DNA of 64,000 bases from Chthoniobacterales bacterium (GTDB lineage Bacteria; Verrucomicrobiota; Verrucomicrobiia; Chthoniobacterales; UBA10450): positions 1,047 through 65,046 of the forward strand of contig DATLNB010000047.1 of assembly GCA_035536995.1 (NCBI GenBank), read 5' to 3'. Shown here in pieces: positions 3,001 through 23,936 of the stretch (positions are counted from its first letter, which is position 1; every line of letters starts with the position of its first letter). The notes beneath the pieces are model-generated. The model saw nothing but the letters and a program-made list of their open reading frames with translations. It was not told where the DNA came from and did not search any database. Position numbers and translations under genes: made by a program.

Positions 3001-3262
3001 CGCGCTGGAGCTGCTCCAGTCGGAACCGAACATCGATCTCGTCCTGATGGACATCATGCTCCCGGAGATGGATGGCTACGAAACCATCCGCGCCATTCGG
3101 AAGATGTATGGATTCGAGGAGCTGCCCATCATCGCCTTGACTGCGAAAGCGATGAAAGGCGATCGCGAAAAATGCATCGATGCCGGCGCGAGCGATTACA
3201 TTTCCAAGCCGGTCGATACCGACCGCCTGCTGACCCTGCTTCGCAACTGGCTCCATCGGTAG
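2..3262 (+). CDS. Hybrid sensor histidine kinase, 5'-truncated by the window edge: tandem HAMP repeats - GAF - coiled coil - HisKA/HATPase - three receiver domains
   Basis: The frame is open from nt 2 ([23 protein letters not shown]), so the listed GTG at 29 is internal. A HAMP-type ~92-aa repeat is seen twice ([25 protein letters not shown] / [25 protein letters not shown]). H-box SHELRTPLN; G-boxes DSGIGIP and [10 protein letters not shown]. Three REC modules ([24 protein letters not shown]). Confidence 0.9.
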
Positions 3263-3265
3263 CTC

Positions 3266-6189: not shown

Positions 6190-8294
6190 TGGCCGGCAGT
6201 TCGCCCGGCCCGAATTCCGTCCGCGAACAAATCTGGCTGCGCTCGCCGTGGCCTCTGCTCGTGGTGATCTGCGCGGCAGCCGCTCTCTGGACGGCGGTCG
6301 CGGGGAATCCGTTCGAGAGCGTGGAGATGCGGTGGTTCGGGCAGGTCCTGCGGTGGCGCTACGAGCGCGGCCTCGCGCCGCCGGCTGACCCAGGCCTTGT
6401 CCACGTCGACATTACGCAGGCCGATCTGCGCAAGGTGCCGACCCTGGAATTAGAATATCAGAACGCGGCAAACATTATCCGGCAGGCGTTCGAGCTCGGG
6501 GCAAAGGTCGTTGCTTTCGACGTCGTTTTCGGACGGGGCAACGAAGCAATGGCGGGCCCGATTCTAAAAGAAATTGAAGCGAGTAAAACGCAAAGCCGCT
6601 CTGTTATTCTCGCGGAAGCGCTTTTGCCGGGCCCTGAGAGCGGAGAAGAACGGGTCCGCTCGTTCCCCTTTCGAGAACGGGTTGTGCCGGCCGGCCTCAT
6701 CAACGTTCGCGCGGATGGCGATGGTGTGCTGCGACGTTACGATTATGTGCATCGCAACGGTGCCGGCGAAACCGAGCCGTCGCTTGCCCTGGCCTGTTAC
6801 CTTGCATGGCGCGATATCGCGTGGCCCGGCGGCGTGACATTCCCGGCGCAGGGCGTCGCTCGCTGGGAAGAACTGTCGAGTGATTTTACAAGTGTCGAGC
6901 CACGAGAGCTCAAGCTCGAGACCGTGTTATTGAACTACCGGAGCCCATGGACCGGTCAGGGACCTGCGGCCTTTCGGCACTATAACGTGGCTCAGCTTGA
7001 AGCTCTGCATGCGACTAGCCGGGCGAACGGGACCCAGCCCCTCACTAATGCGATTGTCATTGTGTCTTACTACGGCGCTGGGCTCGGCGACATGGGGACC
7101 ACTTCGATCGCTCCGAATCAACCTCGCGTGGTGCTTCATTCCACCGCGCTAAACGATTTGATCCAGCGCTCCTGGCTAAAGCGAACGCCGCGCTGGCTGG
7201 ATGCGCTCGCCATTATCGGACTGATCATGCTTGGGGCGGTGGCGGCCTTTATTCGCGGGACGGTTCCTCTGCTCTTGTTCTGGTTCGCCGGCGTTGCGGT
7301 GTGCTGCGGGCTCAGCATTTGGTTCATTTTGAAAACGGGCTGGGTACCTGGGCTGATGAGCACGGGCATCATCTGGAGCCTGTTGACCTTCGTGGAGCTG
7401 GGCCGAAGGCAAAGCCACGAGTTCATCCAGCGGCTCAAGCTTCGGTCGACGATGAGCCTCTATTTTTCCCCCCACATCATGGAGCAGGTCCTGAAGAACC
7501 CGGGCTCGATGGAACCGCAGCAGGCTGAGATCACCGTTCTCCTGACCGATTTGCGCAACTCGACCCCGATCGCGGAGCTGCTCGGTCCTCCCGGTATGTT
7601 CCGCCTGCTCAATCAGGTGTTCGAGACCCAGACGCAGGCCATCCTTGCGGAAGACGGCAGCATGGAACATTTCCTTGGCGACCAATTCCTGAGTTATTGG
7701 GGTGCGCCGCAGGCACAGGTCGACGCGGCCGACCGCGCTTACCGTGCGGCTCTGAGTCTGATTTCAGGGATGGAAGCCCTGCAGGGCAATCTTGAGCCAA
7801 ATCTGAAGGCTTTGTTCGGATATGGGGTTGCCTTGCATAGCGGAAGCGCGCTTATCGGGAACAAAGGATCGGCGCAGCGTCTGGACTACGGTTTGGTCGG
7901 CGACCTGATCAACGCGGCCGCGCGCGTGGAGTCGCTCACGAAATACTACGGCGTTCTTTTCCTGATGACGCGCGAAGCGTTTACCCGGCTTTCCCAACCG
8001 CCTTCCTTTCGCGTCATCGACAGAGCAGTGGTGAAGGGAACGTCCCAGCCGCTCGAGTTGATCGAGGTGAAGCATCCCTTCAGTCCCGCGAAGTTCGACG
8101 ACATTGCCGACCGGTACCGGAATGCTTTTGCCGAATACGAGCGCGGCGATTTTGAACAGGCCCAGCGTCTGTTCTCGGACCTGGCTGAGGAAGAACGAGA
8201 CAAACCGAGCGCACTTATGGCAGAACGATGCCGGGAGCTGGCAGAAACGCGGCCATCCGACTGGCGCGGCGTTTATCACCTGACAGCCAAGTAG
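6186..8294 (+). CDS. CHASE2 sensor domain - class III adenylate/guanylate cyclase
   Basis: N-terminal TM, a ~300-aa periplasmic region, then a 3-TM block (LDALAIIGLIMLGAVAAF...GIIWSLLTFV). Cyclase motifs follow: VLLTDLRNST, FLGDQFLSYWGAP, GVALHSGSALIGNKGS, GDLINAAARVES. Confidence 0.85.
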   Translation: MMAGSSPGPNSVREQIWLRSPWPLLVVICAAAALWTAVAGNPFESVEMRWFGQVLRWRYERGLAPPADPGLVHVDITQADLRKVPTLELEYQNAANIIRQAFELGAKVVAFDVVFGRGNEAMAGPILKEIEASKTQSRSVILAEALLPGPESGEERVRSFPFRERVVPAGLINVRADGDGVLRRYDYVHRNGAGETEPSLALACYLAWRDIAWPGGVTFPAQGVARWEELSSDFTSVEPRELKLETVLLNYRSPWTGQGPAAFRHYNVAQLEALHATSRANGTQPLTNAIVIVSYYGAGLGDMGTTSIAPNQPRVVLHSTALNDLIQRSWLKRTPRWLDALAIIGLIMLGAVAAFIRGTVPLLLFWFAGVAVCCGLSIWFILKTGWVPGLMSTGIIWSLLTFVELGRRQSHEFIQRLKLRSTMSLYFSPHIMEQVLKNPGSMEPQQAEITVLLTDLRNSTPIAELLGPPGMFRLLNQVFETQTQAILAEDGSMEHFLGDQFLSYWGAPQAQVDAADRAYRAALSLISGMEALQGNLEPNLKALFGYGVALHSGSALIGNKGSAQRLDYGLVGDLINAAARVESLTKYYGVLFLMTREAFTRLSQPPSFRVIDRAVVKGTSQPLELIEVKHPFSPAKFDDIADRYRNAFAEYERGDFEQAQRLFSDLAEEERDKPSALMAERCRELAETRPSDWRGVYHLTAK

Positions 8295-8334: not shown

Positions 8335-11300
8335 ATGAAATCCGCCTCTCGATTTATCAGTCTTCTTATATTCCTTGTTCTGTCGGCCAGGCCCGAGGCT
8401 GGCGCGCAGGAAGCGAGTCCAACCCCGAAGCTTGGGCGAGCGGAACTGGAAGCGCAGTTCAAGAAGGTTGAGGCCGAGCGAACGGCTGCGAAGCCAAATA
8501 CCAAGGAACGGGCCGATGCCGCAAACACGGCCATGCAGGCAGCGTCCGACATCGCCTGGATTGCTTTCGACGACGGGAAGTTCGACGAAGCGGCTACCTG
8601 GTTCGCGACCAGCGCAACCTTAAAAGAAGATAACGAGGCAAATGCGCGGGGTTATTGGGACGAATACCTGCGGACGACTGCCCTGGAGCTCGACGGGAAG
8701 GTCGATGAGCGAATAAAGACCGACCGTGAGCAGTTGAAAACGGCGGAAGAGGCAAAGAAACCGATGCTGCTGAAGCTGATTCACGGGTGGGAGAAGCTTC
8801 GTTATCTCAACCGCTACAACGCGGTAACGATGCTCCAACAGATCGCGCGGGAGAACAACAATGCCGCAGACCTCCTGAAATATTACGAGCAAGAGCTCGC
8901 GATCAGGCGTGCGGAGATGTCTTATCTGGAAAAGGCGAAGGCTCCCGAGGCTGAGCTGGTTGAGAAGACCGCACACCTCGCAACCGCCCTGGAGCGGGTG
9001 GCGAGCGCGGAGGCAGACCTCGCGCTCTTCGAACAGGCGGAGAAGCACGCGCTGGAAGCATTGAGTCTGCGACGCGGGCTGCCGGAGGAGATGGCTGAGC
9101 GAAAACTGGATGAGAGTCTCACCGCCCTGGCACGCATGTACGCTTACAACGTGGGCGACTTGAGAAAAGCCCGCGATTACTTTCAGCAATCCTTAACCAG
9201 CATTGAGACCTCGGCCGCAGTGCGAAAGAAGGCTCTGGAGGAAGACCGGTTCTACACGGCGGAGCAAAAGGCCGCGATGAGCAAGGAGGAGCTGGCAAAG
9301 CATGAAGAATCCCGGGCCCAGACGCGCGACATGAAGATCGCGTTGGACGCCATGTCGCTTGCGATGGCTTTGGTCAATCTGGGCGAGATCAGCCAGGAGG
9401 ATGGGGATTTCAAGGGAGCGGCTTCCTACTACGAGAAAGCGCTAAAGGTGGGGACAGAGTTGCCGCAGGGCGGTTTCATGAATGTCTTCGAAATGTTTCG
9501 GGCCCGAATTCGGGCGCGAGTCCTGGGCGACCTGGCCTCGCTCCACGCCGAGAGCGGCGAAGTAGAGCTGGCGTTAAAGGAGCTCAATGAAACTATCTCG
9601 CTCAAGCGGAGCATCGGCCAGGACGATTGGACCGCGCAGTCAATGATCCAGGCGGCCGACCTCGCGAATAATAAGGGCGATATCGCCAATGCCCGCCGTC
9701 TCGTCGAACAGGCGCGGCAAATTTTTGCCGCTGCTCATAAGCTGAACAATGTCGTCCAGGCAACCGGATTCCTGGCCATCATTGCGCGGGACGAAGAGAA
9801 ACTAGATGAAGCGGCCAGGTATGCCGAAGAAGCGCTTCTGCTCGCCCGGAAGACGGGGAACCTTGGCGCTCTAAGCGGGGCCGCCCGAACCTTCGCGTCT
9901 ATTCGAGTAAAGCAGAACAAACTCGCTGAAGCGAAGGCCTTGATAGATGAAGCCCAGGCCGCGGATGCCCGGACGGGGTCAGTCAACGACCGGATCGGCA
10001 GCCTGGGAATTGCCGGGGAGGTCCTGGAAGCTCAGGGAGAAAACGAGAAGGCCCTCGAGGCTTACAAAGAGGCTGTTAAACTAGTGGAGACGGTTCGCGC
10101 GACCGTTGCATCGGAAAGTGCGTTTGCCGATGTGAAACGCAACTACCGCCCGTACGAGAGGATCGTTCGAGCGTTGATCAAGCTAAACAGGGTGGACGAG
10201 GCCTTTGATTATCTCAACCGGGCTAAGTCGAAAAAGCTTCAGGATTCGCTTCGGCTTTCGAGCGTCAAGACGGGCGATAAGGCCATGCAGGCCCTGTTGG
10301 ATCGAGCTACCGGCCTCGAAACCAAGCTTCAGGCTACGACAGCCCAGCTTCAAACCGAGCAGGCGAAGCCAGAGGGCGACCGGGACAAGGCGCGGATCGA
10401 GAACCTCAAGCAGGTGGTCGCTTCTACTCAAGGCGAGTTCCGCAAAGTCGTAGAACAGATCAAGAGCTCGAACCCGAACTACGAAAAGTTCATGACGGTT
10501 AATCCCAAGGCTTTAAAGGAGACGCAGCGGAGCATTCCGCCTGGAACGATGCTGGTGCAGTACGCGCCCCTCGGGGAGCAGCTCTACGTTTTTCTGGTTA
10601 GCAAAGAGAGCATCAAAATCGTGATTTCTCCAGCCCAGCCAGAGGAGCTCTGGAAAAAGATAAAGACGGTCCGTAAGCAAATCACGAGCGGCGAATCGGC
10701 TGGTCCCTTGAACAAGAACCTGACCGCGCTCTACGACGCGTTGATAGCTCCCATCGAATCAGACCTGGAGACAATAAAGGTTATCGCCTTTATCCCGAAC
10801 CAGCTTCTTTTCTATCTGCCAATGCAGGCGCTGGCGAAAAAGCAGCCGGACGGATCGACGCGTTACCTGATCGAAGACAAGCAGATTGTCTATTTAACCG
10901 CGGCTGACGTCATGAAGGTTGTGCAACCTCCCGATGACGAGAAATCGCCCGGTGGGATGGTGGCTTTTGGTAATCCTGCCGGCGCAAACCTGCCCGCCGC
11001 TGAAATAGAAGTAAAGGCGATTGCCGAGGTATTTCCATCTACCGAAGTGCTCGCAGGCCCGCAGGTAACCAAGGCTGCGGTTCACGCCGAGCAGCGGCTG
11101 AACAAAAGGATCGTTCATTTCGCTACCCATGGAATCCTCAACGCAACCGCGCCCTCCGAGAGCTATATCCAACTGGCGGCCTCCGCAGGCCCTTCTGAAG
11201 GGCATTTGACTGTCGGTGAAGTGTGGGATCTGCCTCTGAAGAAGGTCACGTTGGTAACCCTATCTGCCTGTGAGTCAGCCTTGGGGGATAAGGAGCCCGA

Positions 11301-11547
11301 CGGCGGCGAGATCACGACCCTGGCAGAAGCCTTTTCGAGTGCGGGCGCCACTACCGTTCTCGCCAGTCTTTGGAGCGTGGGTGACGAGAGCACCAAGGAG
11401 CTGATGGTAGAGTTTTATAGCCAGCTGGCGGCCGGTGTTTCCAAAGCCGAGGCGCTCCAGAAAGCCGAATTGAAACTACTGAAGAACCCGAAATTTTCCC
11501 GCCCGCTCTATTGGGCTCCTTTTGTTCTGATGGGAGACTGGCGGTGA
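8335..11547 (+). CDS. Secreted TPR-repeat protein with C-terminal CHAT (caspase-like) protease domain
   Basis: Signal peptide (ISLLIFLVLSARPEAGAQE). About 750 aa of TPR-like helical repeats. CHAT hallmarks at the C-terminus: IVHFATHG (His), TLSACES (Cys), LASLWSV.D, PLYWAPFVLMGDWR. Confidence 0.85.
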   Translation: MKSASRFISLLIFLVLSARPEAGAQEASPTPKLGRAELEAQFKKVEAERTAAKPNTKERADAANTAMQAASDIAWIAFDDGKFDEAATWFATSATLKEDNEANARGYWDEYLRTTALELDGKVDERIKTDREQLKTAEEAKKPMLLKLIHGWEKLRYLNRYNAVTMLQQIARENNNAADLLKYYEQELAIRRAEMSYLEKAKAPEAELVEKTAHLATALERVASAEADLALFEQAEKHALEALSLRRGLPEEMAERKLDESLTALARMYAYNVGDLRKARDYFQQSLTSIETSAAVRKKALEEDRFYTAEQKAAMSKEELAKHEESRAQTRDMKIALDAMSLAMALVNLGEISQEDGDFKGAASYYEKALKVGTELPQGGFMNVFEMFRARIRARVLGDLASLHAESGEVELALKELNETISLKRSIGQDDWTAQSMIQAADLANNKGDIANARRLVEQARQIFAAAHKLNNVVQATGFLAIIARDEEKLDEAARYAEEALLLARKTGNLGALSGAARTFASIRVKQNKLAEAKALIDEAQAADARTGSVNDRIGSLGIAGEVLEAQGENEKALEAYKEAVKLVETVRATVASESAFADVKRNYRPYERIVRALIKLNRVDEAFDYLNRAKSKKLQDSLRLSSVKTGDKAMQALLDRATGLETKLQATTAQLQTEQAKPEGDRDKARIENLKQVVASTQGEFRKVVEQIKSSNPNYEKFMTVNPKALKETQRSIPPGTMLVQYAPLGEQLYVFLVSKESIKIVISPAQPEELWKKIKTVRKQITSGESAGPLNKNLTALYDALIAPIESDLETIKVIAFIPNQLLFYLPMQALAKKQPDGSTRYLIEDKQIVYLTAADVMKVVQPPDDEKSPGGMVAFGNPAGANLPAAEIEVKAIAEVFPSTEVLAGPQVTKAAVHAEQRLNKRIVHFATHGILNATAPSESYIQLAASAGPSEGHLTVGEVWDLPLKKVTLVTLSACESALGDKEPDGGEITTLAEAFSSAGATTVLASLWSVGDESTKELMVEFYSQLAAGVSKAEALQKAELKLLKNPKFSRPLYWAPFVLMGDWR

Positions 11548-11585: not shown

Positions 11586-11876
11586 TTACGCCGAAAGGTA
11601 GCGCGCCAGGACCATTAGCCACGTCCCCAAGACCGCTGCGCCGATATAACCAATCAACAGGCCGACCAATGCCACAGACCTGGCCAGAGAACTCCGCCCG
11701 TCAGCGCGGTGACGAGCCAACGCGACGTGTCCGCAAATAATCGAAGGCACCGCTGTGAGCCCGAATGTCAGAATGGCGAATACGCCAAGTGTGAAGGTCC
11801 AGATCGGTAACGCGGAGAGTTCTTCCTCACGGTCTTCAATCAACCGCGCAGGGATGGCCTGACTGCTAGTCATCAT
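11586..11876 (-). CDS. Small membrane protein (DUF4190-like)
   Basis: Two hydrophobic helices with the GHVALARH motif typical of DUF4190-type proteins. Start moved to the internal ATG-ATG at 11871-11876; the longer listed ORF adds a basic, non-membrane extension. Confidence 0.55.
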   Translation of the reverse strand: MMTSSQAIPARLIEDREEELSALPIWTFTLGVFAILTFGLTAVPSIICGHVALARHRADGRSSLARSVALVGLLIGYIGAAVLGTWLMVLARYLSA

Positions 11877-11982
11877 GGTTCGGAGTGGACGGGGCGCGAC
11901 CGTTCTTTTGCAAAAAATCTCGCAGCGGAAATCACGCAACGGCCGCTTGTGAGTTCGTTCCCACCTCTGGTAAGAGAAGTGC

Positions 11983-12624
11983 ATGGAACCCGGCGAAACA
12001 GCGCGCGAGAAATCGAAGGAGGAGAGGGCGCCCTTCGTCTTCGGGGTGAGCGGTCACCGGGATCTGGTGGCGAGCGATATTCCCGAACTACGGCGGCAAC
12101 TCGATATCGTTTTCGCCCGTTTTTGCGCGGCCCATTCCGCCTGTCAGTTCCAACTCCTGACGCCGCTGGCAGAAGGCGCAGATCGCCTCGCGGCAGAAGT
12201 GGCCCTGGCGCACGGCATCAATTTATGGGTGCCCATGCCAATGGCCCAGGCGGACTACGAACGGGACTTTACTGCTCCCGAGTCGCTTGCGGAATTTCGA
12301 CGGCTGCTTGGCTTTGCGGAAAGAGTGTGGCGGATTGACAGCCCGGCGAATACCAGCCGCGACGATCAATACGCCGCGGTGGGCGATTTCATCGCGCGAA
12401 CGAGTCACGTCCTTGTTCTTTTTTGGGACGGTCAGCTGAACGAAATGAAAGGGGGCACCGGCTGGGTGAAGCTGCGGCGGGACCATTGGATCGGAAGCGC
12501 GGGAATGAATCCCGGCCCGCCTGGGTACGTGGGAACGATCCAGATTGTGACGCCGCGGGCGACGGGCGCAAAACGCGGGGAGAGACAGCCCCGGATCGAG
12601 GTTAAAGGCGAGCTCCCCGCTTAG
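11983..12624 (+). CDS. Stand-alone SLOG-like (LOG/DprA-fold-like) domain protein
   Basis: Motif series FGVSGHRD ... PLAEGADRLAAEVAL ... LWVPMP ... LFWDG...KGGTG. The same series occurs in the central domain of the convergent neighbour (VFSGHM ... AASGSDILFAEAML ... HLVLPWP ... VWDGYTGAPGGTG). The superfamily call is an inference from motif pattern. Confidence 0.6.
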   Translation: MEPGETAREKSKEERAPFVFGVSGHRDLVASDIPELRRQLDIVFARFCAAHSACQFQLLTPLAEGADRLAAEVALAHGINLWVPMPMAQADYERDFTAPESLAEFRRLLGFAERVWRIDSPANTSRDDQYAAVGDFIARTSHVLVLFWDGQLNEMKGGTGWVKLRRDHWIGSAGMNPGPPGYVGTIQIVTPRATGAKRGERQPRIEVKGELPA

Positions 12625-14531
12625 GTTCGTCCTGAGACCGCTGTGCGTTCGATGCTGTAGACGCGGAACAATCCGTAGCTTTTTGCCAGGGCAGTCGTGC
12701 CCACCAGATCACAGGTAAACCCTTTGGATTGATCCGCCGCGGCAAGAGCGGCGAACTCTTCGCTCGTGAATACTTCGCCTTCGTGAGTAATCGGCTCGAT
12801 CCTCGCGGCCCGACTGACGTGCGCTCCGGTAAAGGATATCTGTCTCACTACCGGATCGAAGTTAACGTAAACCGGGCCGGCGTGAATTCCGATGCGGATG
12901 TTAAGCTGATGAGGCAGACCTAGCTCTACCCAGTCAATCGAGGTAACCATGTCGCGTAGATCAAGCGCGAACCGGCCGGCATCTTCTACCCCGTTGAAAA
13001 CAAAGAAGAGGCCATCGCCCCACGTGTTGCAATTCACCGGAGCGGCCGGACTATCGGCGATCAAACGCGAAACGCGCTGATTGAATTGAGCGACGTACTT
13101 CGGGATGACCGTCTCCGGCAGCTTACTGTAGCCGACTACGTCCGCGAACATGATCGCCTTGATCTCCTGACGCCCCGAAGCGCGCACCCAGGCTTCGAAC
13201 TCGTCGTCGCTGTTACTCGCATCAACGTCGAATGTTTCAGTGTCGTGAAGCATGGAAGGGGGCTTCGTGGCAATCGGAACGACCTTTACCTGGGCGCCAT
13301 GATTTCTCCAATAGCGGACAAAGGATCCTGTCCCGCCAGGAGCCCCGGTATAGCCGTCCCAGACCGCGAGCGGCGTGATTTCCAGATCGAGGGAGCGCGC
13401 GAAAATCCGCGCCAGCCCGTTCATGGCGAGATTGCAGTATTCGAAACCGGTCGCGCTGCCCGGCATATAAAGCTGGCCAAGGATACGGATCGAAGCGGCG
13501 CGATCGAGGACGTTCTCAAATCGCTTTACCCAGGCGCCGTTACTCGCAAGCGCGACGCTTGTCCTGACGAACTCCTCGGCCGGCCACGGAAGGACAAGGT
13601 GGATGCTCGCGCCTCGTTCGAGCATTGCTTCCGCGAACAGGATATCCGAACCCGATGCAGCGCTCGAGAAACCGATCCCGGCGTTCATTGCCGCGAGTTG
13701 CTTCTCCAGAAGCGCCTTTATTTCGCCTTCCTTTTCCTGTGGGAAACGCGGGGTCCGCCGATCCGGCGCATCGATCATGTGCCCCGAGAAGACAACGAGC
13801 TTCGGGATAGGGAAACAGTCGTCGAAAAGGTCTGATCGTCCGTAGAGTTGCCGCGACAGGGTGCGGGCCTGCTTTCGAGTGGATGAGAAGGCGCGCAGGT
13901 TATCCTTCTCCATCCCGACCGCGTTGCGGTAAGCGCGTTTGGCTCCGTCGGCGTCGCCCAGAATAACCAAAGCTTCGGCGACGGTTGCCAGTTTCCAGTA
14001 ATCGTCCGGTTGCTTCTGGCAGATATCGAGAACCATGGTGGCGATCTGCTTCGCCTTGCTCGTCTCCTTGAGAAGTAAAGCTATGGTTGCCGCATTGATT
14101 CCTGGATAAGAGTCGGGCGGATGAACTTCAAAGGCCCGGTTGTAATGCTCGAAGGCCTGGCGGAGTGGCTCCTCGTCGGCAGGGTCGGCGCACCATTGGT
14201 CTTTGTAGGTCCTTCCAAGGATGCTGAGAGTTTCGCGATTGGTCGGGTCCTGTTCGATCAGAGCATTTAAAATTGCCTGGGCCCGGGCAGGGGAACCCAT
14301 CTGGGCGAGAGAGAGAGCCATTCTTTGTTGCAGCCAGGCATCGTCGGGATGGCTCTCGAGAGCGGCCCGCCCAGCGTCGTAGGCAGTCAGGAACTCACCG
14401 GCGGAAAGAGCGCGCTTAACGAACGAATGGACCGCCTTAATGTCGTCCATCCATTCCGTGCGGCGGCGCCAGAGCTCGTGGAGGGCAACGCTGGCGCTGG
14501 TGGCGTTATTGACTTCGGACAAATCGGACAC
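12621..14531 (-). CDS. Three-domain protein: TPR-like (DUF4071 / TRAF-binding-domain-like) - SLOG-like - class III adenylate/guanylate cyclase
   Basis: The N-terminus has GRTYKDQW ... YPGINAATIALL ... DYWKLATVAEALV. The centre carries the SLOG-like motifs (about 13272-13805). C-terminal cyclase motifs: IMFADVVGYSKL, NTWGDGLFFVF, IRIGIHAGPV, FTGAHVSRAARIE. Its stop overlaps the stop of 11983-12624 (TTAG at 12621-12624). Confidence 0.8.
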   Translation of the reverse strand: MSDLSEVNNATSASVALHELWRRRTEWMDDIKAVHSFVKRALSAGEFLTAYDAGRAALESHPDDAWLQQRMALSLAQMGSPARAQAILNALIEQDPTNRETLSILGRTYKDQWCADPADEEPLRQAFEHYNRAFEVHPPDSYPGINAATIALLLKETSKAKQIATMVLDICQKQPDDYWKLATVAEALVILGDADGAKRAYRNAVGMEKDNLRAFSSTRKQARTLSRQLYGRSDLFDDCFPIPKLVVFSGHMIDAPDRRTPRFPQEKEGEIKALLEKQLAAMNAGIGFSSAASGSDILFAEAMLERGASIHLVLPWPAEEFVRTSVALASNGAWVKRFENVLDRAASIRILGQLYMPGSATGFEYCNLAMNGLARIFARSLDLEITPLAVWDGYTGAPGGTGSFVRYWRNHGAQVKVVPIATKPPSMLHDTETFDVDASNSDDEFEAWVRASGRQEIKAIMFADVVGYSKLPETVIPKYVAQFNQRVSRLIADSPAAPVNCNTWGDGLFFVFNGVEDAGRFALDLRDMVTSIDWVELGLPHQLNIRIGIHAGPVYVNFDPVVRQISFTGAHVSRAARIEPITHEGEVFTSEEFAALAAADQSKGFTCDLVGTTALAKSYGLFRVYSIERTAVSGRT

Positions 14532-14624: not shown

Positions 14625-15836
14625 TTAGTGGCGGCAGCAATCGTGCGGACCCGATCCGTGATCGTGATCGCATTCATGATCGTGCTGGCCAGTCTCGTGG
14701 TCGTGGCCGCAATCGTGATCGTGATGATGGTGATGAGCCGACCACGATGGGAATGGATCGGCCAGGCGCTTCCAGGCTGCGGGGCCCCCAACCATTTCTT
14801 CATCGGTTAACAAACATCCATCCAACTCAGCGCGGACGACAGCGGGCTCCAGGTCCACGGTCATCAACGCGATCGCCTGCCGCCGGTCGCCGAACGGTTC
14901 CTGCCAGTGTTTCCGTGTCCCTGCCGACATTTCCCGGTCGCGCGTTTCTTGATCGCGCGTTGCCCACCACTCGCCCGCGGCGCCGCATTGGAGCTCGGTT
15001 CCCGCCAGGTTGAGACCGCCGACGAGGTCCATTCTCGTGGCGAGCCAGACAAAGCCTTTGGCCCGGAAAATCTGGCGCAGGTCGCTCTGGAGAAGGCGCC
15101 AAAGACGCTCCGGATGGAATGGTTTCCGTGCGTGATAAGCAAAGGCGGTCACCCCATGCGGATACGAGATGGGATCTGCTTGCTCCTCAATAAGCCGGCG
15201 CCATTCAGCCGCGTCGAGCACAGCGGCAAAGTCGAGTGTCTCTCCGCTTATCCTGGTGACCATGTCACTGGGGCCGTTTCCCCGAAGGTCAGGCAAGGTC
15301 GCCCGGGGATTGAGCGCGCCAAGGACGGCGCGGGCAAGGCTAACTTCGGAATCGTCCGCTGCTGGGTCGAGGAGGATGCTGCCGGCGAACTCGAGTTGCT
15401 CAACGATAAAGCAGACCGGCTGCGTCGAGGAACCTTTGCGGTCGGGCAGGAGCAAGTCCAGGACGGTTGTGGGGGCAATAGCCATCGCGGCGTGACTTAA
15501 TCGCACTGCGCCCGATGAGTTTTCGTTCTCGAGTGCAAACAAAGAGGCATAGGCCATGATCGGCTGGCCTTCGTCGCAGTGGACGATGAGGTGGTCGAGG
15601 CCACCATGCCCCGCGATGGTTTTGATCTGATGGCTGATCTCCGCCGGACTAGATGTCGTTAGGTGGAACAAGCGCGGGTCCGACTCCGCCGGGCCACCGG
15701 GGACTTGCGGGGTTAATAATCCGATCCGCGCGTTCTGGTTCCCGGCATGCCAAAGTTGCCTGGCCGCAGACGCGGCGGATGGTCCGCCAATAATAGACAC
15801 GGGCAACACGGCCGTGCCGTCGACAACGTCTTTCAT
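14625..15836 (-). CDS. CobW/COG0523-like protein with degenerate GTPase motifs, CobW_C-like domain and His/Asp/Cys-rich tail
   Basis: The C-terminal half resembles CobW_C (GVTAFAYHARKPFHPERLWRLL...IFRAKGFVWLA...DRRQAIALM). The tail is HHHHHDHDCGHDHETGQHDHECDHDHGSGPHDCCRH. The expected Walker A position reads VSIIGGPSAASAA. No CxCC or NKxD equivalents were recognised. Confidence 0.65.
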   Translation of the reverse strand: MKDVVDGTAVLPVSIIGGPSAASAARQLWHAGNQNARIGLLTPQVPGGPAESDPRLFHLTTSSPAEISHQIKTIAGHGGLDHLIVHCDEGQPIMAYASLFALENENSSGAVRLSHAAMAIAPTTVLDLLLPDRKGSSTQPVCFIVEQLEFAGSILLDPAADDSEVSLARAVLGALNPRATLPDLRGNGPSDMVTRISGETLDFAAVLDAAEWRRLIEEQADPISYPHGVTAFAYHARKPFHPERLWRLLQSDLRQIFRAKGFVWLATRMDLVGGLNLAGTELQCGAAGEWWATRDQETRDREMSAGTRKHWQEPFGDRRQAIALMTVDLEPAVVRAELDGCLLTDEEMVGGPAAWKRLADPFPSWSAHHHHHDHDCGHDHETGQHDHECDHDHGSGPHDCCRH

Positions 15837-15845
15837 CTTGCTGGG

Positions 15846-16745
15846 CTAGCTGGCCGGCGGTGGTTTCCCAGCCCGCGCAACCGGTGCCGACGGCGGCGGC
15901 TTTCCGGCGCGTGCCGCGGGCGCAGCTGGCGCATCCGCGGACACGACGTTGGGCGCGGTCACATCGCTGCGCCATGGAATAGCAAGCCGATGCAGAATGG
16001 ACTTGGCTTCCAATGGTGCGAGGTCAGGCATCTGCGAAACGAGCCGCGCGAGCAGAGCGCTCATGATAGGCGCCGCGAAACTGCTGCCAGTGACTTCCTT
16101 GGTCCCCTTGTTGTTCCAGGGAAGAGTAACGTCCACGCCGCGAGCAGCGAATTCAACGAGATGGCCGGGTTTGTAGAAGAAGGTGTGGTCCTCGTCGAAC
16201 CGCGCCATGTTAACTGTAACCACGCTGGGGAAGTAGCCGGGCCATTCGGGCGTGGTAAAGTCGTAGTTGTTACAGGCGGAGACGATGTGGATGCCTTTCA
16301 GGTAGGCTTCGTCGATCCACTCCTTGTATTGAAAGATGTGCTCGGACAACCCGCAGCCGAAGCTGCAGTTGAGGATGTGATAGCCCCGGTCAATCGCCTG
16401 TCTGACTCCTTCCCGAATAATGACAGTGCGCGACCCCAAATTCGCTCCGAGCACCCGAATGCTTCCGACCCGCGCGTCGGGTGCGATCCGCCGGATCACG
16501 GCTGTAACGGCGGTGCCGTGGCCGAAGACATCGGTCCCATCACCTTCTTTGACTTCGATTTGGACGCCGGCATCGACGACGTGCAAATCGTCAACGAGAG
16601 AAAGGCCCGACAGGGCCGGATGATCGGTCTCAACTCCGGAATCGATAACTGCGATGCGAACCCCCTTGCCGGTGCCCTCCTTTAAGGCGCGCCGTGCTTC
16701 CTCGAGGCGGAACGGGCTCGGATCCCGGGTCAGAGTCGATTCCAT
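15846..16745 (-). CDS. S8 (subtilisin-family) serine peptidase without a signal peptide
   Basis: Catalytic triad contexts AVIDSGV (Asp), GHGTAVTAV (His), GSSFAAPIM (Ser). No N-terminal hydrophobic segment. The C-terminus has a duplicated Pro-rich unit ARAGKPPPSAPV/ARAGKPPPAS. The start overlaps the GAF gene end by 16 nt. Confidence 0.85.
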   Translation of the reverse strand: MESTLTRDPSPFRLEEARRALKEGTGKGVRIAVIDSGVETDHPALSGLSLVDDLHVVDAGVQIEVKEGDGTDVFGHGTAVTAVIRRIAPDARVGSIRVLGANLGSRTVIIREGVRQAIDRGYHILNCSFGCGLSEHIFQYKEWIDEAYLKGIHIVSACNNYDFTTPEWPGYFPSVVTVNMARFDEDHTFFYKPGHLVEFAARGVDVTLPWNNKGTKEVTGSSFAAPIMSALLARLVSQMPDLAPLEAKSILHRLAIPWRSDVTAPNVVSADAPAAPAARAGKPPPSAPVARAGKPPPAS

Positions 16746-17353
16746 CCCACTGCAGTACCGAGAAGCCGGTAATCGATCAAGTCTCTTACGACCGCAGCGA
16801 TGGTTTGGATGGCGTTCAGCTCGGGCGGCCCAAAGCCCGACGGCGTCTCACCGGTCGCGGCAGCCTGGCCATCGTGAACCATGACGTCGAGGAGCTGGAC
16901 ACACGAAATAACGCCGCGGACCTCGTTCAAAAAATAGAGCGGCACCGCGATCATCGCGTAAGTCGTCTTCTGCAGCTTTTTATCGAGGGTGGCGCTGTGC
17001 TTGGCGTTCTTGAAGACCTGGTTTTCGACAAAGGCATGCTCGCTCGCCACAACCAGGCTAACGATGCCCTGACTGACCGGCTGCTTGAAGCCCATGATTT
17101 TTTCGGTGTTCGGACCGCTGTTGTAGGCCACCACCAAATGTTGCTTTTCGGAGTCAAGTAACCAGATGCTCCCTTCGTCCGCTGAAATTCGCGCGAACGT
17201 GTCTTTCAGAAGCTTGAGCAGCATCTCGTCGCAAATGCTGAGAAAATTTTCCGGATTGATCGCGGCTCCCAGCTTCGCGAGATGTTCCTGGAGCGCGGGG
17301 CGGAGCGCTGCCAGACGCTGTTCCGGCAGGAAATTTGCGCGACTGGCCTTCAT
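16730..17353 (-). CDS. GAF domain protein
   Basis: GAF-like core (EGSIWLLDSEKQHLVVAYNSG ... GIVSLV ... AMIAVPLYFLNEVRGVISCVQ). Overlaps its upstream gene by 4 nt and its downstream gene by 16 nt. Confidence 0.75.
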   Translation of the reverse strand: MKASRANFLPEQRLAALRPALQEHLAKLGAAINPENFLSICDEMLLKLLKDTFARISADEGSIWLLDSEKQHLVVAYNSGPNTEKIMGFKQPVSQGIVSLVVASEHAFVENQVFKNAKHSATLDKKLQKTTYAMIAVPLYFLNEVRGVISCVQLLDVMVHDGQAAATGETPSGFGPPELNAIQTIAAVVRDLIDYRLLGTAVGWNRL

Positions 17354-17583
17354 TCGGGCGGTTGCCTGATCGCCTTGGTCTCCGTGACCAGCGCAGAAAT
17401 TAGCTCGGGATGTTCCTGGAGCAGCTTCTTCATCTCAGTTCGCTCTTCTTCACTGCATTTCCCATGGGCAAACCTGGCGATCTTTTCCCGGAGCTCTGCC
17501 GGGATCGCCGCGCCGGTGCGACCCGCAACTTCGCGGGCGTCACCATCGAAGAACTCCAACAGGGTTTTGAAATCATCATTCAC
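17350..17583 (-). CDS. Short soluble anti-sigma-factor-like protein (degenerate zf-HC2-like)
   Basis: 77 aa with no TM segment. FAHGKCSEEERTEMKKLLQEHPEL mirrors the anti-sigma pattern (Y)LDGELSPEER..VE.HL..C..C, with the metal ligands replaced. Sits directly downstream of an ECF sigma gene. Confidence 0.45.
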   Translation of the reverse strand: MNDDFKTLLEFFDGDAREVAGRTGAAIPAELREKIARFAHGKCSEEERTEMKKLLQEHPELISALVTETKAIRQPPE

Positions 17584-17739: not shown

Positions 17740-18450
17740 TCAAAAAACATCCGAGGAACCGGCGCAAAGCTCGACGAAATCTTCCCAGCGCAGCTCGAGC
17801 CATGGATCGATCCGCTTTAGCTCCGCGAGGATGATCCGCGATACGCTCTGCCGCGTTCCGTCCAGCGTCCGGCTTACTTTCGATTCGTGCCAGCCCCACA
17901 TCCGCGCGATCTCTCGCTGCGTGAGATCGTGCAGGTGAACCAGTTTCAACATCAGGACCGCGTCAGGCTCCTGCTTCGCGAAGGCGCGCTTGATCGCGTC
18001 CCGCAGGAGCTCGACGAGCCGTTGTTCGCTTGTTTCTTTTTCAGGTTGCGGCCGGCGATCGAAGAAATCTTCAGGCGAATCCGGCGAAGGCGATACGTCG
18101 ACGCGAAAGCTTTGCCGCCGCTTAAGATCGACCAGCCGATTGGTTGCGACGGTAAGCAACCACGATTCGAGCGCGCACCGTCCCTGATATTTGGAGAGCA
18201 GCGGCTCGCGATTCCCGCGCGGGGCAAAACAATCAGCCCAAAGGTCGGCAACCAGGTCTTCCGCTTCGGTTTGGCTGGCGCCGCGGGCGCGAAGGACGCC
18301 GACGAGCTTGCCGTGGTAACGGGTCCGGAGTTCCGCTGCGGCGGCTGCGTCCGTGGCCAGAACCCGCTGGACGAACGCGAGATCCTGTTCATGGCGCGAT
18401 GGAGCCAGGGCCTGCATAAGGAAAGGGAGGATGAAGTTGGCTTCCCGCAT
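17740..18450 (-). CDS. ECF-type sigma-70 family RNA polymerase sigma factor
   Basis: Region 2 (DLVADLWADCF ... LESWLLTVATNRLVDLKRR) and region 4 (LMLKLVHLHDLTQREIARMWGWHESKVSRTL). The listed 373-aa ORF runs through tRNA-Arg, so the start is trimmed to the ATG at 18448-18450 (alternative ATG at 18417). Confidence 0.8.
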   Translation of the reverse strand: MREANFILPFLMQALAPSRHEQDLAFVQRVLATDAAAAAELRTRYHGKLVGVLRARGASQTEAEDLVADLWADCFAPRGNREPLLSKYQGRCALESWLLTVATNRLVDLKRRQSFRVDVSPSPDSPEDFFDRRPQPEKETSEQRLVELLRDAIKRAFAKQEPDAVLMLKLVHLHDLTQREIARMWGWHESKVSRTLDGTRQSVSRIILAELKRIDPWLELRWEDFVELCAGSSDVF

Positions 18451-18475
18451 CGTCAATGATTTTGACCGCGCCGCG

Positions 18476-18549
18476 CGTGCCTGGAGGGATTCGAACCCCC
18501 AACCTGCTGATCCGAAGTCAGCTGCTCTATCCGGTTGAGCTACAGACAC
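18476..18549 (-). tRNA. tRNA-Arg (anticodon TCG)
   Basis: Hand-folded 74-nt cloverleaf: acceptor GTGTCTG/CAGGCAC, D arm GCTC-AACCGGATA-GAGC, anticodon arm GCTGA-CTTCGGA-TCAGC, variable loop AGGTT, T arm GGGGG-TTCGAAT-CCCTC, discriminator G. No encoded CCA. Confidence 0.9.
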
Positions 18550-18652
18550 TCGCGCGGTCAAGGTGTCGGAGCCAGCGAGAGCGTGCAAGTCACGAAGCGA
18601 TGCCGTAATCGGGAAATGGGCGCTGTCCTGTGCAATATTTCCACCAGAGCCT

Positions 18653-23077: not shown

Positions 23078-23174
23078 GCGGTAAATAACCGGGCCGCAGA
23101 AGAGGCTCCGCCATTTTTAGCTTGAGTGCCCGGGCGGGAGCAATCACGCTGAAAACGTGAGAGCTACGTCCGTC

Positions 23175-23930: not shown

Positions 23931-23936
23931 GCGCTC

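What the first reader, a model, noticed from the sequence alone, without database searches (positions are those of the whole stretch)
11983..14531. Convergent pair: stand-alone SLOG-like protein and a TPR - SLOG-like - nucleotide cyclase fusion with overlapping stop codons
Seen in sequence: the 213-aa protein and the middle domain of the 636-aa protein (13272-13805) share an ordered motif series. The series is SGH near the N-terminus, A(E/S)G(A/S)D..(A/F)AE, an (L/V)P.P strand, and WDG followed a few residues later by GGTG. They are therefore paralogous domains. The pattern resembles the LOG/DprA-like SLOG superfamily of nucleotide-binding/processing domains. The fusion protein adds an N-terminal DUF4071/TRAF-binding-domain-like TPR module and a C-terminal class III cyclase with intact metal and transition-state residues. 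The two genes converge and share 4 nt (TTAG), leaving no room for terminators. Inference: this is a nucleotide-signal generator fused to a putative nucleotide sensor or processor, plus a free copy of the same sensor. In comparative-genomic surveys of nucleotide-centred conflict systems that architecture type has been linked to immunity-like signalling. This specific trio of domains is, to my knowledge, uncharacterised experimentally.
Basis: partly seen in the sequence, partly recalled or inferred. Interest (0 to 1): 0.65.

Follow-up and report, generated by a model that had tools for sequence, protein, structure and literature searches.

The report
Two SLOG sensors flanking a cyclase
Two converging genes in a soil Verrucomicrobium each encode a predicted YpsA-like SLOG nucleotide-binding domain, one of them fused to a TPR-S array and an unusual nucleotide cyclase. 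Their relatives elsewhere sit next to TIR immune-signalling genes, but here they lie in a conserved regulatory gene cluster that has no TIR gene.

Summary
ORFs 11983-12624(+) (213 aa) and 12621-14531(-) (636 aa) converge and overlap by 4 nt. The 213-aa protein and residues ~235-430 of the fusion are remote paralogues (hhalign E 2e-7). Both AlphaFold models match YpsA (2nx2) best, followed by other SLOG proteins.

The fusion is TPR-S + SLOG + class III cyclase. The cyclase keeps both metal aspartates and the arginine. It has Asn, Ser and Ser at the Lys, Asp and Asn positions, and this pattern is conserved across its clade.

Neither SLOG family has a Pfam model, yet both are large. Family A is normally fused to a SLATT-like membrane region and preceded by a TIR-TPR gene. 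Family B normally follows TPR-S, and TIR is the commonest domain in its neighbours.

In Verrucomicrobiota the pair sits in a conserved cluster of about 12 genes. The fusion is the last gene of a sigma / anti-sigma-like / GAF / S8 / CobW_C-like operon. No TIR was found in the window.

The convergent pairing is confined to that one clade, and each gene occurs without the other in the nearest outgroups. My best reading is a Thoeris-like receptor module that converts a nucleotide signal into cNMP. It is a new variant of a known kind, and its biochemistry is untested.

The parts
11983..12624 (+). Stand-alone YpsA-like SLOG protein, 213 aa ('family A'). Motifs: S23-G-H25, G65-x-D67, E72, V83-P-x-P86, W148-D-G150, G157-G-T159.
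   Evidence: ORF. No Pfam, NCBIfam or PADLOC hit. At least 500 homologues. AF2 model pLDDT 85. Foldseek top hit YpsA 2nx2, E 9e-9, TM 0.60/0.70.
12621..12624 (.). 4-nt overlap (TTAG) of the two convergent stop codons.
   Evidence: In relatives the gene ends overlap by 4 to 28 nt, or abut within a few nt (L023, L024, L093).
12621..14531 (-). TPR-S / SLOG ('family B') / class III cyclase fusion, 636 aa from the GTG start. Gene callers start relatives about 30 codons later, giving 605-606 aa.
13830..14531 (-). N-terminal TPR-S / MAP3K_TRAF_bd-type TPR array (about residues 1-234).
   Evidence: PF20308 E 9e-22, 78 bits against a cut-off of 27.6. PF13281 E 6e-13.
13242..13829 (-). Middle YpsA-like SLOG domain (residues 235-430). 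Motifs: S249-G-H251, G294-x-D296, E301, L314-P-x-P317, W391-D-G393, G399-G-T401.
   Evidence: No Pfam hit. AF2 pLDDT 87. Foldseek top hit 2nx2, E 1e-6, TM 0.62/0.68. 6193 representatives at 50% identity match the profile.
12624..13199 (-). C-terminal class III nucleotidyl cyclase domain (about residues 445-636). D464, D506 and R577 are kept. N502, S566 and S573 replace Lys, Asp and Asn.
   Evidence: PF00211 E 1e-8, 35.4 bits against a cut-off of 21.9. Alignments to 3mr7 and 3et6. Clade-wide conservation.
14625..15836 (-). CobW_C/COG0523-like protein with a His-rich tail. It lies upstream of the fusion on the same strand, 93 nt away.
   Evidence: PF07683 E 5e-19. NCBIfam ZigA matches residues 143-363 only, far below its cut-off. 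Conserved in synteny.
15846..16745 (-). S8 subtilase.
   Evidence: PF00082 E 9e-25. Conserved in synteny. Also next to distant fusions in L010, L102 and L107.
16730..17353 (-). Single-domain GAF protein, 207 aa. Its 3' end overlaps the S8 start by 16 nt.
   Evidence: PF13185 E 1e-5, 25.8 bits, just below the 28.6-bit cut-off. Conserved in synteny. A GAF gene also lies in the L010 cluster.
17350..17583 (-). 77-aa anti-sigma-like ORF. Its 3' end overlaps the GAF start by 4 nt.
   Evidence: ORF. A 77-78-aa gene is called at the same place in relatives. The 'anti-sigma-like' label is my reading of the sequence and has no profile hit. In L102, L107 and L113 the equivalent neighbour is a 145-164-aa ORF with an H-x3-C-x2-C motif.
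17740..18861 (-). Sigma-70-family, ECF-type sigma factor. The true start is probably internal, since relatives are 225-229 aa.
   Evidence: PF04542. Synteny.
11586..11984 (-). Small DUF4190 membrane protein, divergent from the 213-aa gene. The likely true start is the internal Met near 11876, giving about 96 aa.
   Evidence: PF13828 E 2e-7, 31.1 bits, below the 35-bit cut-off. Relatives are 96-97 aa.
8335..11547 (+). TPR-CHAT (caspase-like) protein, 1070 aa.
   Evidence: PF12770 E 6e-66. Conserved in synteny.
6186..8294 (+). CHASE2 sensor fused to a class III cyclase, 702 aa.
   Evidence: PF05226 and PF00211. Conserved in synteny.
5476..6189 (+). 237-aa protein of unknown family, first gene of the + strand unit.
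   Evidence: No Pfam hit. Conserved, with a second paralogue in many relatives.

Best explanation
Shown here:
- The two genes encode two different members of the YpsA-like branch of the SLOG fold.
- Family A is the 213-aa protein. In other phyla it is the N-terminal domain of proteins of about 580 aa with a SLATT/DUF4231-like membrane C-terminus, often preceded by a TIR-TPR gene.
- Family B is the middle of the fusion. It usually follows a TPR-S array and is followed by variable outputs, most often this atypical cyclase.
- In this verrucomicrobial lineage both genes sit in a conserved chromosomal cluster made of two converging gene sets, and no TIR gene was found.

Inferred mechanism:
1. TPR-S plus SLOG-B forms the receptor for a small nucleotide-derived ligand, most likely an ADP-ribose-type molecule. 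This is by analogy with ThsA-SLOG and with the TPR-S effector of type VIII Thoeris.
2. Ligand binding switches on the C-terminal cyclase, which keeps its metal-binding and arginine residues.
3. The cyclase makes a cyclic nucleotide of unknown base.
4. The co-operonic single-domain GAF protein reads that nucleotide and controls the S8 protease.
5. The protease acts on the small anti-sigma-like protein and so controls the ECF-type sigma factor of the same operon.
6. The free SLOG-A has lost its membrane effector region. It most likely binds the same class of ligand, as a buffer or threshold-setter or as an adaptor for the neighbouring TPR-CHAT protease.

The convergent overlap means the two transcripts must overlap, or one must terminate inside the other gene. 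Whether that has any regulatory use is unknown.
For: Fold:
- The AF2 models are confident (pLDDT 85 and 87).
- Both hit YpsA 2nx2 first, followed by other SLOG proteins.
- Both carry G-x-D after strand 2. The YpsA clade has a GxD/E signature (PMC6459960).

Paralogy: hhalign E 2.2e-7.

Family B:
- 6193 representatives match the profile.
- Of 60 multidomain members, 43 have TPR-S, 19 a cyclase, 5 RyR and 2 TIR. CHAT, kinase, patatin and a sigma-54 activator each occur once.
- A constant TPR-S/SLOG part with a variable output fits a sensor module.

Family A:
- It is widespread (at least 524 loci).
- The long forms have weak SLATT_1, SLATT_3 or DUF4231 hits. NCBI names the Caballeronia homologue a DUF4231 protein.

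TIR context:
- TIR_2 is the commonest family among immediate neighbours of both families: 17 of 109 and 18 of 108.
- A preprint reports that TIR+SLATT (type VII) and TIR+CMP-hydrolase/TPR-S (type VIII) Thoeris systems use cADPR, and that the two effectors sometimes share one operon (10.64898/2025.12.03.692087).

Operon logic:
- sigma, the 77-aa ORF, GAF, S8, CobW_C-like and the fusion lie on one strand. Neighbours overlap by 4 and 16 nt or are 9 to 156 nt apart.
- The gene set is conserved in 15 of 16 related genome loci.
- Distant fusions at 42-47% identity again lie next to sigma, anti-sigma and S8 (plus GAF in L010), in a different gene order (L010, L102, L107, L113).

Cyclase: D464, D506 and R577 are conserved in 64-65 of 66 clade members. 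The replacements are themselves conserved (Asn 55 of 66, Ser 44 of 66). This argues for a working but unusual active site.
Against: - No ligand, product or interaction was tested. Every step from ligand binding onward is inference.
- No TIR or other obvious signal generator was found in the window with a local TIR profile.
- The missing transition-state Asn (Ser573) and the unusual base-specifying residues could mean low or no cyclase activity.
- SLOG domains can be enzymes rather than sensors. Family B has many invariant polar residues (H, D, R, R, D, E).
- The GAF match is below Pfam's cut-off (25.8 against 28.6 bits).
- The anti-sigma role of the 77-aa ORF rests only on my reading of its sequence.
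- Pairing of the two SLOG genes is limited to one clade.
- L019 and the Agrobacterium TIR-caspase-SLOG operon suggest that SLOG-A goes with the CHAT/caspase side rather than with the fusion.
Confidence: 0.4

Rival explanations
1. The two genes are the ends of two separate functional modules that merely abut. SLOG-A belongs to the + strand set (237-aa protein, CHASE2-cyclase, TPR-CHAT, DUF4190) and works with the caspase-like CHAT protease. The fusion belongs only to the sigma/GAF/S8 operon. The 4-nt overlap is genome compaction.
For: - L019 keeps SLOG-A together with the 237-aa, CHASE2-cyclase, CHAT and DUF4190 genes, but has a different 990-aa gene in place of the fusion.
- Fusions at 65-78% identity (L099-L101), and about 70 more distant ones, have no SLOG-A nearby.
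- On Agrobacterium Ti plasmids a stand-alone SLOG-A-like protein (E 7e-19) follows TIR and a caspase-family gene in one operon.
- Convergent genes cannot be co-transcribed.
Against: - The pairing is kept in 15 of 16 related genome loci and in 6 metagenome loci, with ends overlapping or abutting.
- Family A and TPR-S/cyclase fusions also lie within 3-8 kb of each other in Gammaproteobacteria (L065, L077, L083). A Caballeronia plasmid shows the same, although its middle domain is degenerate.
- The Thoeris preprint reports SLATT and TPR-S effectors sharing operons.
Confidence: 0.3
2. One or both SLOG domains are enzymes, not sensors. They would cleave or rearrange a nucleotide, in the manner of LOG N-glycosidases or the NAD-cleaving Rossmannoid domain of BcTpr. 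They would thereby generate or destroy the signal, or process the cyclase substrate or product.
For: - Family B has invariant or nearly invariant polar residues across 60 diverse members: G-H-M-x-D, two Arg, G-x-D, E, S, R, N and G-G-T.
- Family A has a similar set.
- LOG-clade SLOG proteins are N-glycosidases (PMC9503650).
- A preprint reports that the Rossmannoid domain attached to TPR-S in BcTpr consumes NAD+ and makes a cADPR isomer (10.1101/2023.05.26.542521).
Against: - The closest structural match is YpsA, for which no catalysis is known.
- ThsA-SLOG is a pure sensor.
- The architecture pattern (constant TPR-S/SLOG, variable output; family A fused to SLATT-like regions) is that of a receptor.
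- No match to LOG profiles at E <= 0.1.
Confidence: 0.2
3. The locus is an active anti-phage defence system of the Thoeris kind, with the TIR partner encoded elsewhere.
For: - TIR is the commonest neighbour domain of both families elsewhere.
- Related loci carry nSTAND1, patatin, restriction-modification and TIR genes.
Against: - No TIR in any window ORF of 50 aa or more.
- The cluster shows stable synteny across many Chthoniobacterales-type genomes rather than patchy, island-like occurrence.
- Its partners are regulatory (sigma factor, GAF, CHASE2).
- PADLOC gives only a weak PycC match, E 0.003.
Confidence: 0.1

Closest known systems
YpsA (B. subtilis, PDB 2nx2) and the YpsA-like clade of the SLOG superfamily
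   Same: It is the best structural match for both domains (TM 0.60-0.70). The order of strands and helices is the same. A G-x-D/E motif follows strand 2, and an acidic or aromatic-rich motif ends strand 5.
   Different: - No significant sequence match (hhalign to the YpsA sequence E 0.015-0.19; no Pfam YpsA hit).
- Extra conserved S-G-H-x-x-D and G-G-T motifs.
- Different contexts (TPR-S, cyclase, SLATT-like regions, TIR).
ThsA SLOG domain of type I Thoeris (PDB 7uxs)
   Same: A SLOG-fold receptor for a TIR-made ADPR-derived signal, attached to an output domain. Relatives of both families here are often next to TIR genes.
   Different: - Only a weak structural match (E 2e-3, TM about 0.36).
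- The output here is a cyclase, or nothing, instead of SIR2.
- No TIR in this locus.
Type VII (TIR + SLATT effector ThsH) and type VIII (TIR + CMP-hydrolase/TPR-S effector ThsI) Thoeris, bioRxiv 10.64898/2025.12.03.692087
   Same: - Family A long forms are SLATT/DUF4231-like proteins behind TIR genes.
- The fusion carries the same TPR-S array that the preprint credits to Aravind and colleagues as a predicted participant in TIR-mediated signalling, and that it proposes perceives cADPR.
- The two effector kinds sometimes share a locus.
   Different: - I could not check whether ThsH has the family A domain.
- The Rossmannoid partner of TPR-S here is a SLOG placed after the TPR, not a CMP-hydrolase-type domain before it.
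- The output is a cyclase.
- The window copy of family A lacks the membrane region.
BcTir/BcTpr and the TPR-S assemblies of Burroughs and Aravind 2020 (as summarised in bioRxiv 10.1101/2023.05.26.542521)
   Same: TPR-S coupled to a TIR/DrHyd/SLOG-class Rossmannoid domain. The preprint lists 'YspA-Tpr' and 'Patatin-Tpr' assemblies.
   Different: - Reversed domain order.
- An added cyclase.
- The 2020 paper itself could not be read here, so I cannot say whether this exact architecture is listed.
Class III adenylate/guanylate cyclases; Pycsar cyclases as a looser comparison
   Same: A Pfam PF00211 match above the cut-off. Both metal aspartates and the arginine are present.
   Different: - Asn, Ser/Thr/Asn and Ser stand at the Lys, Asp and Asn positions, so base specificity and rate cannot be predicted.
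- Only a weak PycC match (E 0.003).

Membership tests
SLOG superfamily | Rossmannoid three-layer alpha/beta fold whose closest structural relatives are SLOG proteins | tested here: met
   AF2 models have pLDDT 85 and 87. Foldseek hits for both models: YpsA, DprA, ShosA, MoCo carrier protein, TM1055 (1rcu). The 213-aa model also hits ThsA-SLOG and TRPM4/8; the middle-domain model also hits type-I LOG.
SLOG superfamily | Significant match to a curated SLOG sequence profile (LOG, DprA, YpsA, YAcAr, LSDAT and similar) | tested here: not met
   No Pfam hit for either domain at E <= 0.1. One of 28 family B members hit YAcAr at E 0.07. PDB sequence searches found nothing relevant.
YpsA-like clade of SLOG | G-x-D/E signature after strand 2 (G53/E55 in B. 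subtilis YpsA) | tested here: met
   G65-A-D67 and G294-S-D296 lie at the start of helix 2. The signature is described in PMC6459960. The register against the YpsA sequence comes from a non-significant hhalign (E 0.015).
SLOG superfamily | Binds or processes a nucleotide or nucleotide-derived ligand | not testable with these tools
   Needs binding and turnover assays.
TPR-S (PF20308) | Profile match above the curated cut-off | tested here: met
   78 bits against a cut-off of 27.6, residues 55-150. PF13281 49 bits against 24.1.
Class III nucleotidyl cyclase | PF00211 match above the cut-off | tested here: met
   35.4 bits against 21.9, residues 459-613.
Class III nucleotidyl cyclase | Two metal-binding aspartates | tested here: met
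   D464 and D506, conserved in 65 and 64 of 66 clade members.
Class III nucleotidyl cyclase | Transition-state Asn and Arg | tested here: not met
   R577 is present (65 of 66). The Asn position is Ser573. In the clade it is Ser 44, Asn 10, Thr 5.
Class III nucleotidyl cyclase | Canonical base-specifying pair (Lys/Asp for ATP, Glu/Cys-type for GTP) | tested here: not met
   Asn502 (Asn in 55 of 66) and Ser566 (Thr, Asn or Ser in most).
Thoeris-type TIR signalling system | A TIR-domain gene in the same operon or locus | tested here: not met
   A TIR profile built from 35 TIR neighbours finds the TIRs of L007 and L010 but nothing in any window ORF of 50 aa or more at E <= 1. Some relatives have a DUF4062 protein beyond the sigma gene; the window has an M10 peptidase there.
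Thoeris-type TIR signalling system | An effector protein with a sensor domain for an ADPR-derived signal | tested here: inconclusive
   SLOG and TPR-S domains are present. Their families are often next to TIR genes elsewhere. The ligand is unknown.
SLOG-SLATT effectors | C-terminal SLATT two-helix membrane domain | tested here: not met
   The window protein ends at 213 aa with no membrane region. Long relatives show weak SLATT_1, SLATT_3 or DUF4231 hits, mostly below cut-off. The neighbouring DUF4190 protein is not SLATT-like (hhalign probability 1.8%).

The most novel reading that the evidence does not exclude
TPR-S/SLOG-B/cyclase proteins are signal converters. They would take an ADP-ribose-type, TIR-style nucleotide signal and re-emit it as a cyclic mononucleotide. 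In this lineage the module would have been taken over from immunity for housekeeping regulation. The cNMP would act through a GAF protein and an S8 protease on an anti-sigma-like protein, giving a previously undescribed route of ECF sigma activation. The effector-less SLOG-A would set the ligand threshold.
Probability: 0.2. Interest if true: 0.75.

Novelty: new variant of a known kind. Interest (0 to 1): 0.55.

Why it matters
Both SLOG families are large. One has at least 6000 clusters at 50% identity. The other occurs in at least 524 species-level genomes. Neither is covered by the Pfam, NCBIfam or PADLOC copies searched here, so databases label these proteins only as 'hypothetical' or 'TRAFs-binding domain' proteins.

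Relatives of the fusion are frequently next to TIR genes. A cyclase output would mean a two-step nucleotide relay, from an NAD-derived signal to a cNMP. I did not find such an output in the readable text of the Thoeris papers I consulted.

The verrucomicrobial cluster offers a possible case of immune-type receptor domains reused in a stable sigma-factor circuit. The atypical, clade-conserved cyclase active site (Asn/Ser/Ser) also raises the question of which nucleotide it makes.

Tried and rejected
- Pairwise BLASTP of the two proteins showed no significant similarity.
- Pfam, NCBIfam and PADLOC scans gave nothing for either SLOG region.
- PDB sequence searches with single sequences and with profiles gave only chance-level hits.
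- hhalign of each family against the YpsA sequence was in register but not significant.
- I tested whether DUF4190 is a detached SLATT. hhalign probability was 1.8%, so I rejected the idea.
- I tested whether the ~150-aa ORFs convergent with distant fusions (L102, L107, L113) are diverged SLOG-A. They are not. They carry an H-x3-C-x2-C anti-sigma-type motif and do not match either SLOG profile.
- I looked for a TIR gene in the window with a local profile and found none. A Pfam census of the remaining window ORFs listed only its top 25 families, so it could not exclude a weak TIR on its own.
- The Caballeronia plasmid fusion has TPR-S and the cyclase, but its middle region is degenerate: no S-G-H or W-D-G/G-G-T motifs and only a marginal profile match. 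It is weak evidence for co-occurrence.
- The two key comparative papers could not be read here: Burroughs et al. 2015 NAR, and Burroughs and Aravind 2020 J Bacteriol. I therefore cannot say whether these exact families or this architecture are already listed there.
- The consensus scan found no promoter-like site and no more terminator-like hairpins than in shuffled sequence (6 against 3.6 +/- 2.4).


Full report
**1. The observation**

The window has an ORF at 11983-12624 on the + strand (213 aa, ATG start). It has another at 12621-14531 on the - strand (636 aa from a GTG start). The + ORF ends in TAG at 12622-12624. The - ORF ends in TAA, the reverse complement of 12621-12623. The genes therefore converge and share TTAG.

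| Motif | 213-aa protein | Fusion |
|---|---|---|
| S-G-H | 23-25 | 249-251 |
| G-x-D | 65-67 | 294-296 |
| E | 72 | 301 |
| (V/L)-P-x-P | 83-86 | 314-317 |
| W-D-G | 148-150 | 391-393 |
| G-G-T | 157-159 | 399-401 |

Direct BLASTP of the two proteins is not significant.

I collected homologues of each region and aligned them (A1 and A2). Profile-profile comparison then gave probability 93.6% and E 2.2e-7 over 149 columns, with all motifs in register. The shared pattern is therefore more than chance. The relationship is remote.

**2. What the shared domain is**

Neither region matches any Pfam, NCBIfam or PADLOC model. Neither matches any PDB sequence.

AlphaFold models built on the two alignments are confident: pLDDT 85 with pTM 0.83, and pLDDT 87 with pTM 0.87. 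They show the same alternation of six strands and helices.

Foldseek against the PDB puts B. subtilis YpsA (2nx2) first for both models (E 9e-9 and 1e-6, TM 0.60-0.70). DprA, ShosA, the MoCo carrier protein and TM1055 follow for both. The 213-aa model also hits the ThsA SLOG domain and TRPM4/8. The middle-domain model also hits LOG. All of these proteins are SLOG-fold.

The G-x-D motif after strand 2 corresponds to the GxD/E signature of the YpsA clade (PMC6459960). The register against the YpsA sequence fits but is not statistically significant. I conclude that both are YpsA-like SLOG domains from families that the domain libraries searched here do not cover.

**3. The rest of the fusion**

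Residues 55-150 match TPR-S (PF20308, 78 bits). Residues 72-208 match MAP3K_TRAF_bd. Residues 459-613 match the class III cyclase family (35 bits against a cut-off of 22).

Alignments to solved cyclases identify the catalytic positions:
- The two metal aspartates are D464 and D506.
- The arginine is R577.
- The Lys, Asp and Asn positions are Asn502, Ser566 and Ser573.

In 66 cyclase domains from this architecture the Asp, Asp and Arg are kept in 64-65. The replacements are themselves conserved: Asn in 55, Thr/Asn/Ser in most, and Ser in 44. This looks like a maintained but unusual active site and not decay. The product cannot be predicted.

**4. How big and how varied the two families are**

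*Family B.* A profile of the middle domain finds 6193 cluster representatives at 50% identity (E <= 0.001). Of 60 multidomain members:
- 43 carry TPR-S.
- 19 carry the cyclase.
- 5 carry an N-terminal RyR domain.
- 2 carry TIR.
- CHAT, protein kinase, patatin and a sigma-54 activator each occur once.

Stand-alone copies lie next to a TIR-TPR gene (L007) or a patatin gene beside a restriction-modification system (L009).

*Family A.* The 213-aa type occurs in at least 524 loci among species-representative genomes from many phyla. Outside Verrucomicrobiota it is almost always the N-terminal domain of proteins of 570-650 aa. Their C-termini give weak SLATT_1, SLATT_3 or DUF4231 matches. NCBI names the Caballeronia homologue a DUF4231 protein.

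**5. Neighbours in other phyla**

I ran a Pfam census of the genes immediately next to family A in 63 non-verrucomicrobial loci. TIR_2 was the commonest family, in 17 of 109 neighbours. The typical upstream partner is a TIR-TPR protein of about 595 aa.

The same census for about 70 distant TPR-S/SLOG/cyclase loci from metagenomes again put TIR_2 first, in 18 of 108 neighbours. The 12 IspD hits there fit a recurrent ~226-aa upstream gene seen in about ten loci. I take this to be inherited lineage synteny and not a functional link.

Both families therefore keep the company expected of receptor or effector parts of TIR-based signalling systems. A 2025 preprint reports that TIR+SLATT (type VII) and TIR+CMP-hydrolase/TPR-S (type VIII) Thoeris systems defend against phage using canonical cADPR. 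It also reports that the two effector kinds occasionally share an operon. An earlier preprint on BcTir/BcTpr lists 'YspA-Tpr' assemblies from the Burroughs and Aravind 2020 survey. I could not read that survey or the 2015 SLOG paper.

**6. The local cluster**

In Verrucomicrobiota (Chthoniobacterales-type MAGs) the pair lies in a conserved cluster.

On the + strand:
- A 237-aa unknown protein.
- CHASE2-cyclase.
- TPR-CHAT.
- Often a second copy of the unknown protein (absent in the window).
- The stand-alone SLOG-A gene, further downstream.

A small DUF4190 gene lies on the - strand, between TPR-CHAT and SLOG-A.

On the - strand, converging on SLOG-A:
- Sigma factor.
- A 77-aa ORF.
- GAF.
- S8 protease.
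- CobW_C-like protein.
- The fusion.

In the window the - strand genes are tightly packed. The 77-aa ORF overlaps GAF by 4 nt, and GAF overlaps S8 by 16 nt. S8 and the CobW_C-like gene are 9 nt apart. The CobW_C-like gene and the fusion are 93 nt apart. The fusion is therefore most likely the last gene of a six-gene operon.

More distant fusions (42-47% identity) in L010, L102, L107 and L113 again lie next to a sigma factor, a zinc-finger-type anti-sigma ORF and an S8 protease. L010 also has a GAF gene. The gene order is different. Retention of the same neighbours after rearrangement is the best evidence I have for a functional link. It links the fusion to that set rather than to the 213-aa gene.

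**7. Is the convergent pair a functional pair?**

*For.*
- 15 of 16 related genome loci and 6 metagenome loci keep the two genes end to end. Their ends overlap by 4 to 28 nt or abut within a few nt.
- Family A proteins and TPR-S/SLOG/cyclase fusions lie 6-8 kb apart in three gammaproteobacterial loci (L065, L077, L083).
- They lie 3.4 kb apart on a Caballeronia plasmid beside a TIR gene. That plasmid's middle domain is degenerate.

*Against.*
- The verrucomicrobial loci are not independent of one another.
- L019 keeps SLOG-A with the + strand genes but has another gene in place of the fusion.
- Fusions at 65-78% identity (L099-L101), and all the more distant ones with enough flank, lack SLOG-A.
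- On Agrobacterium Ti plasmids a stand-alone SLOG-A-like protein follows TIR and a caspase-family gene. That fits a link to the CHAT protease here.

I therefore treat the coupling of the two genes as possible but unproven.

**8. No TIR here**

I built a TIR profile from the 35 TIR neighbours. It recovers the known TIRs of L007 and L010. It finds nothing in any window ORF of 50 aa or more. Some relatives have a DUF4062 protein beyond the sigma gene. The window has an M10 peptidase at that position.

Together with the stable synteny, this argues against a mobile defence island. It points to a resident regulatory circuit.

**9. Mechanism I commit to (inferred)**

1. TPR-S plus SLOG-B binds a nucleotide-derived ligand, probably of the ADP-ribose type.
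2. This activates the cyclase.
3. The cNMP is read by the GAF protein.
4. GAF controls the S8 protease.
5. S8 acts on the anti-sigma-like protein and so on the sigma factor.
6. SLOG-A has lost its membrane region. It binds a related ligand, as a buffer or as an adaptor for the CHAT protease.

I put about 0.4 on this overall picture. I am much more confident (about 0.85-0.9) in the fold and family assignments. The main rivals are:
- The two genes belong to separate modules.
- The SLOG domains are enzymes.
- The locus is an active defence system with a distant TIR.

**10. Verdict**

The finding is a new variant of a known kind: TIR/SLOG/TPR-S nucleotide signalling with a cyclase output and a sigma-factor context. 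It is of moderate interest, and all of its biochemistry remains untested.

Noticed in passing
window 14625-15836 (-): The COG0523/CobW-like protein matches only through its C-terminal part (CobW_C; ZigA model residues 143-363, far below cut-off). Where the GTPase P-loop would be, the sequence reads IIGGPSAASAARQL with no Lys, so the GTPase looks degenerate. It ends in a long His/Asp/Cys-rich tail. It is conserved in the operon in all relatives.
   Followed up: partly
window 17350-17583 (-): A 77-aa ORF overlaps the GAF start by 4 nt. Its sequence (…HGKCSEEERTEMKKLLQEHPEL…) resembles the N-terminal sigma-binding part of anti-sigma factors but lacks the full H-x3-C-x2-C motif. A 77-78-aa gene is called at the same place in relatives.
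   Followed up: partly
P0207; L038 2546-4651; L075 5842-7518; L070 13311-16061; L010 4347-4691: RyR domains (PF02026) recur around these systems. They are fused N-terminally to TPR-S/SLOG/cyclase in 5 of 60 sampled proteins, and they occur in genes next to family A SLOG-SLATT proteins. This is curious, because cADPR has long been linked to ryanodine-receptor Ca2+ release in animals (background knowledge, not tested here). The role of the bacterial domain is unknown.
   Followed up: no
window 5476-6189 (+); L001 6929-7585: A 237-aa protein without any Pfam match opens the CHASE2-cyclase/TPR-CHAT gene set. Many relatives have a second, diverged copy (about 218 aa) between CHAT and DUF4190. The window lacks that copy.
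   Followed up: partly
L005 14866-16653; L014 16795-18582; L015 16709-18517; L020 16759-18597; window 18563-20071: In several relatives a ~600-aa DUF4062 protein lies just beyond the sigma gene. It gives weak hits (E 0.03-0.09) to my TIR profile. The window has an M10 (matrixin-type) peptidase at that position instead.
   Followed up: partly
L174 (Agrobacterium pTiCFBP5877) 5639-7480: A TIR gene, a caspase-family gene and a 149-aa stand-alone family-A-like SLOG form an apparent operon on Ti plasmids. CHAT genes and a TIR + S8 peptidase pair lie nearby. It looks like a three-gene relative of the caspase-type Thoeris systems.
   Followed up: partly
L024, L025, L027, L010: In several assemblies the fusion, S8, CobW_C-like and GAF genes are split into two or three ORFs. 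This is probably frameshift error. It may explain why the database search with the middle domain returned mostly fragments rather than full-length proteins.
   Followed up: no
window 11586-11984 (-): The mechanical ORF for the DUF4190 gene (132 aa) overlaps the start of the 213-aa gene by 2 nt. Relatives are 96-97 aa, so the real start is probably the Met-Met near 11876. That would leave a divergent intergenic region of about 107 nt.
   Followed up: partly
window 29-5431 (+): Two large hybrid histidine kinases (HAMP-GAF-HisKA-HATPase with three receiver stretches, and receiver-GAF-HisKA-HATPase) lie directly upstream of the cluster. They are not part of the conserved synteny in relatives.
   Followed up: no
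window 23157-26678 (+): A second sigma-70-family gene is followed directly by a Ser/Thr protein kinase with a long TPR tail (913 aa).
   Followed up: no
L077 3892-7647; L065 4524-8195: In the gammaproteobacterial loci a large nSTAND1-TPR NTPase lies between the TPR-S/SLOG/cyclase gene and the family A SLOG-SLATT gene. An unknown protein of about 730 aa lies there too, conserved in L071, L077 and L083. Neither has a TIR match.
   Followed up: partly
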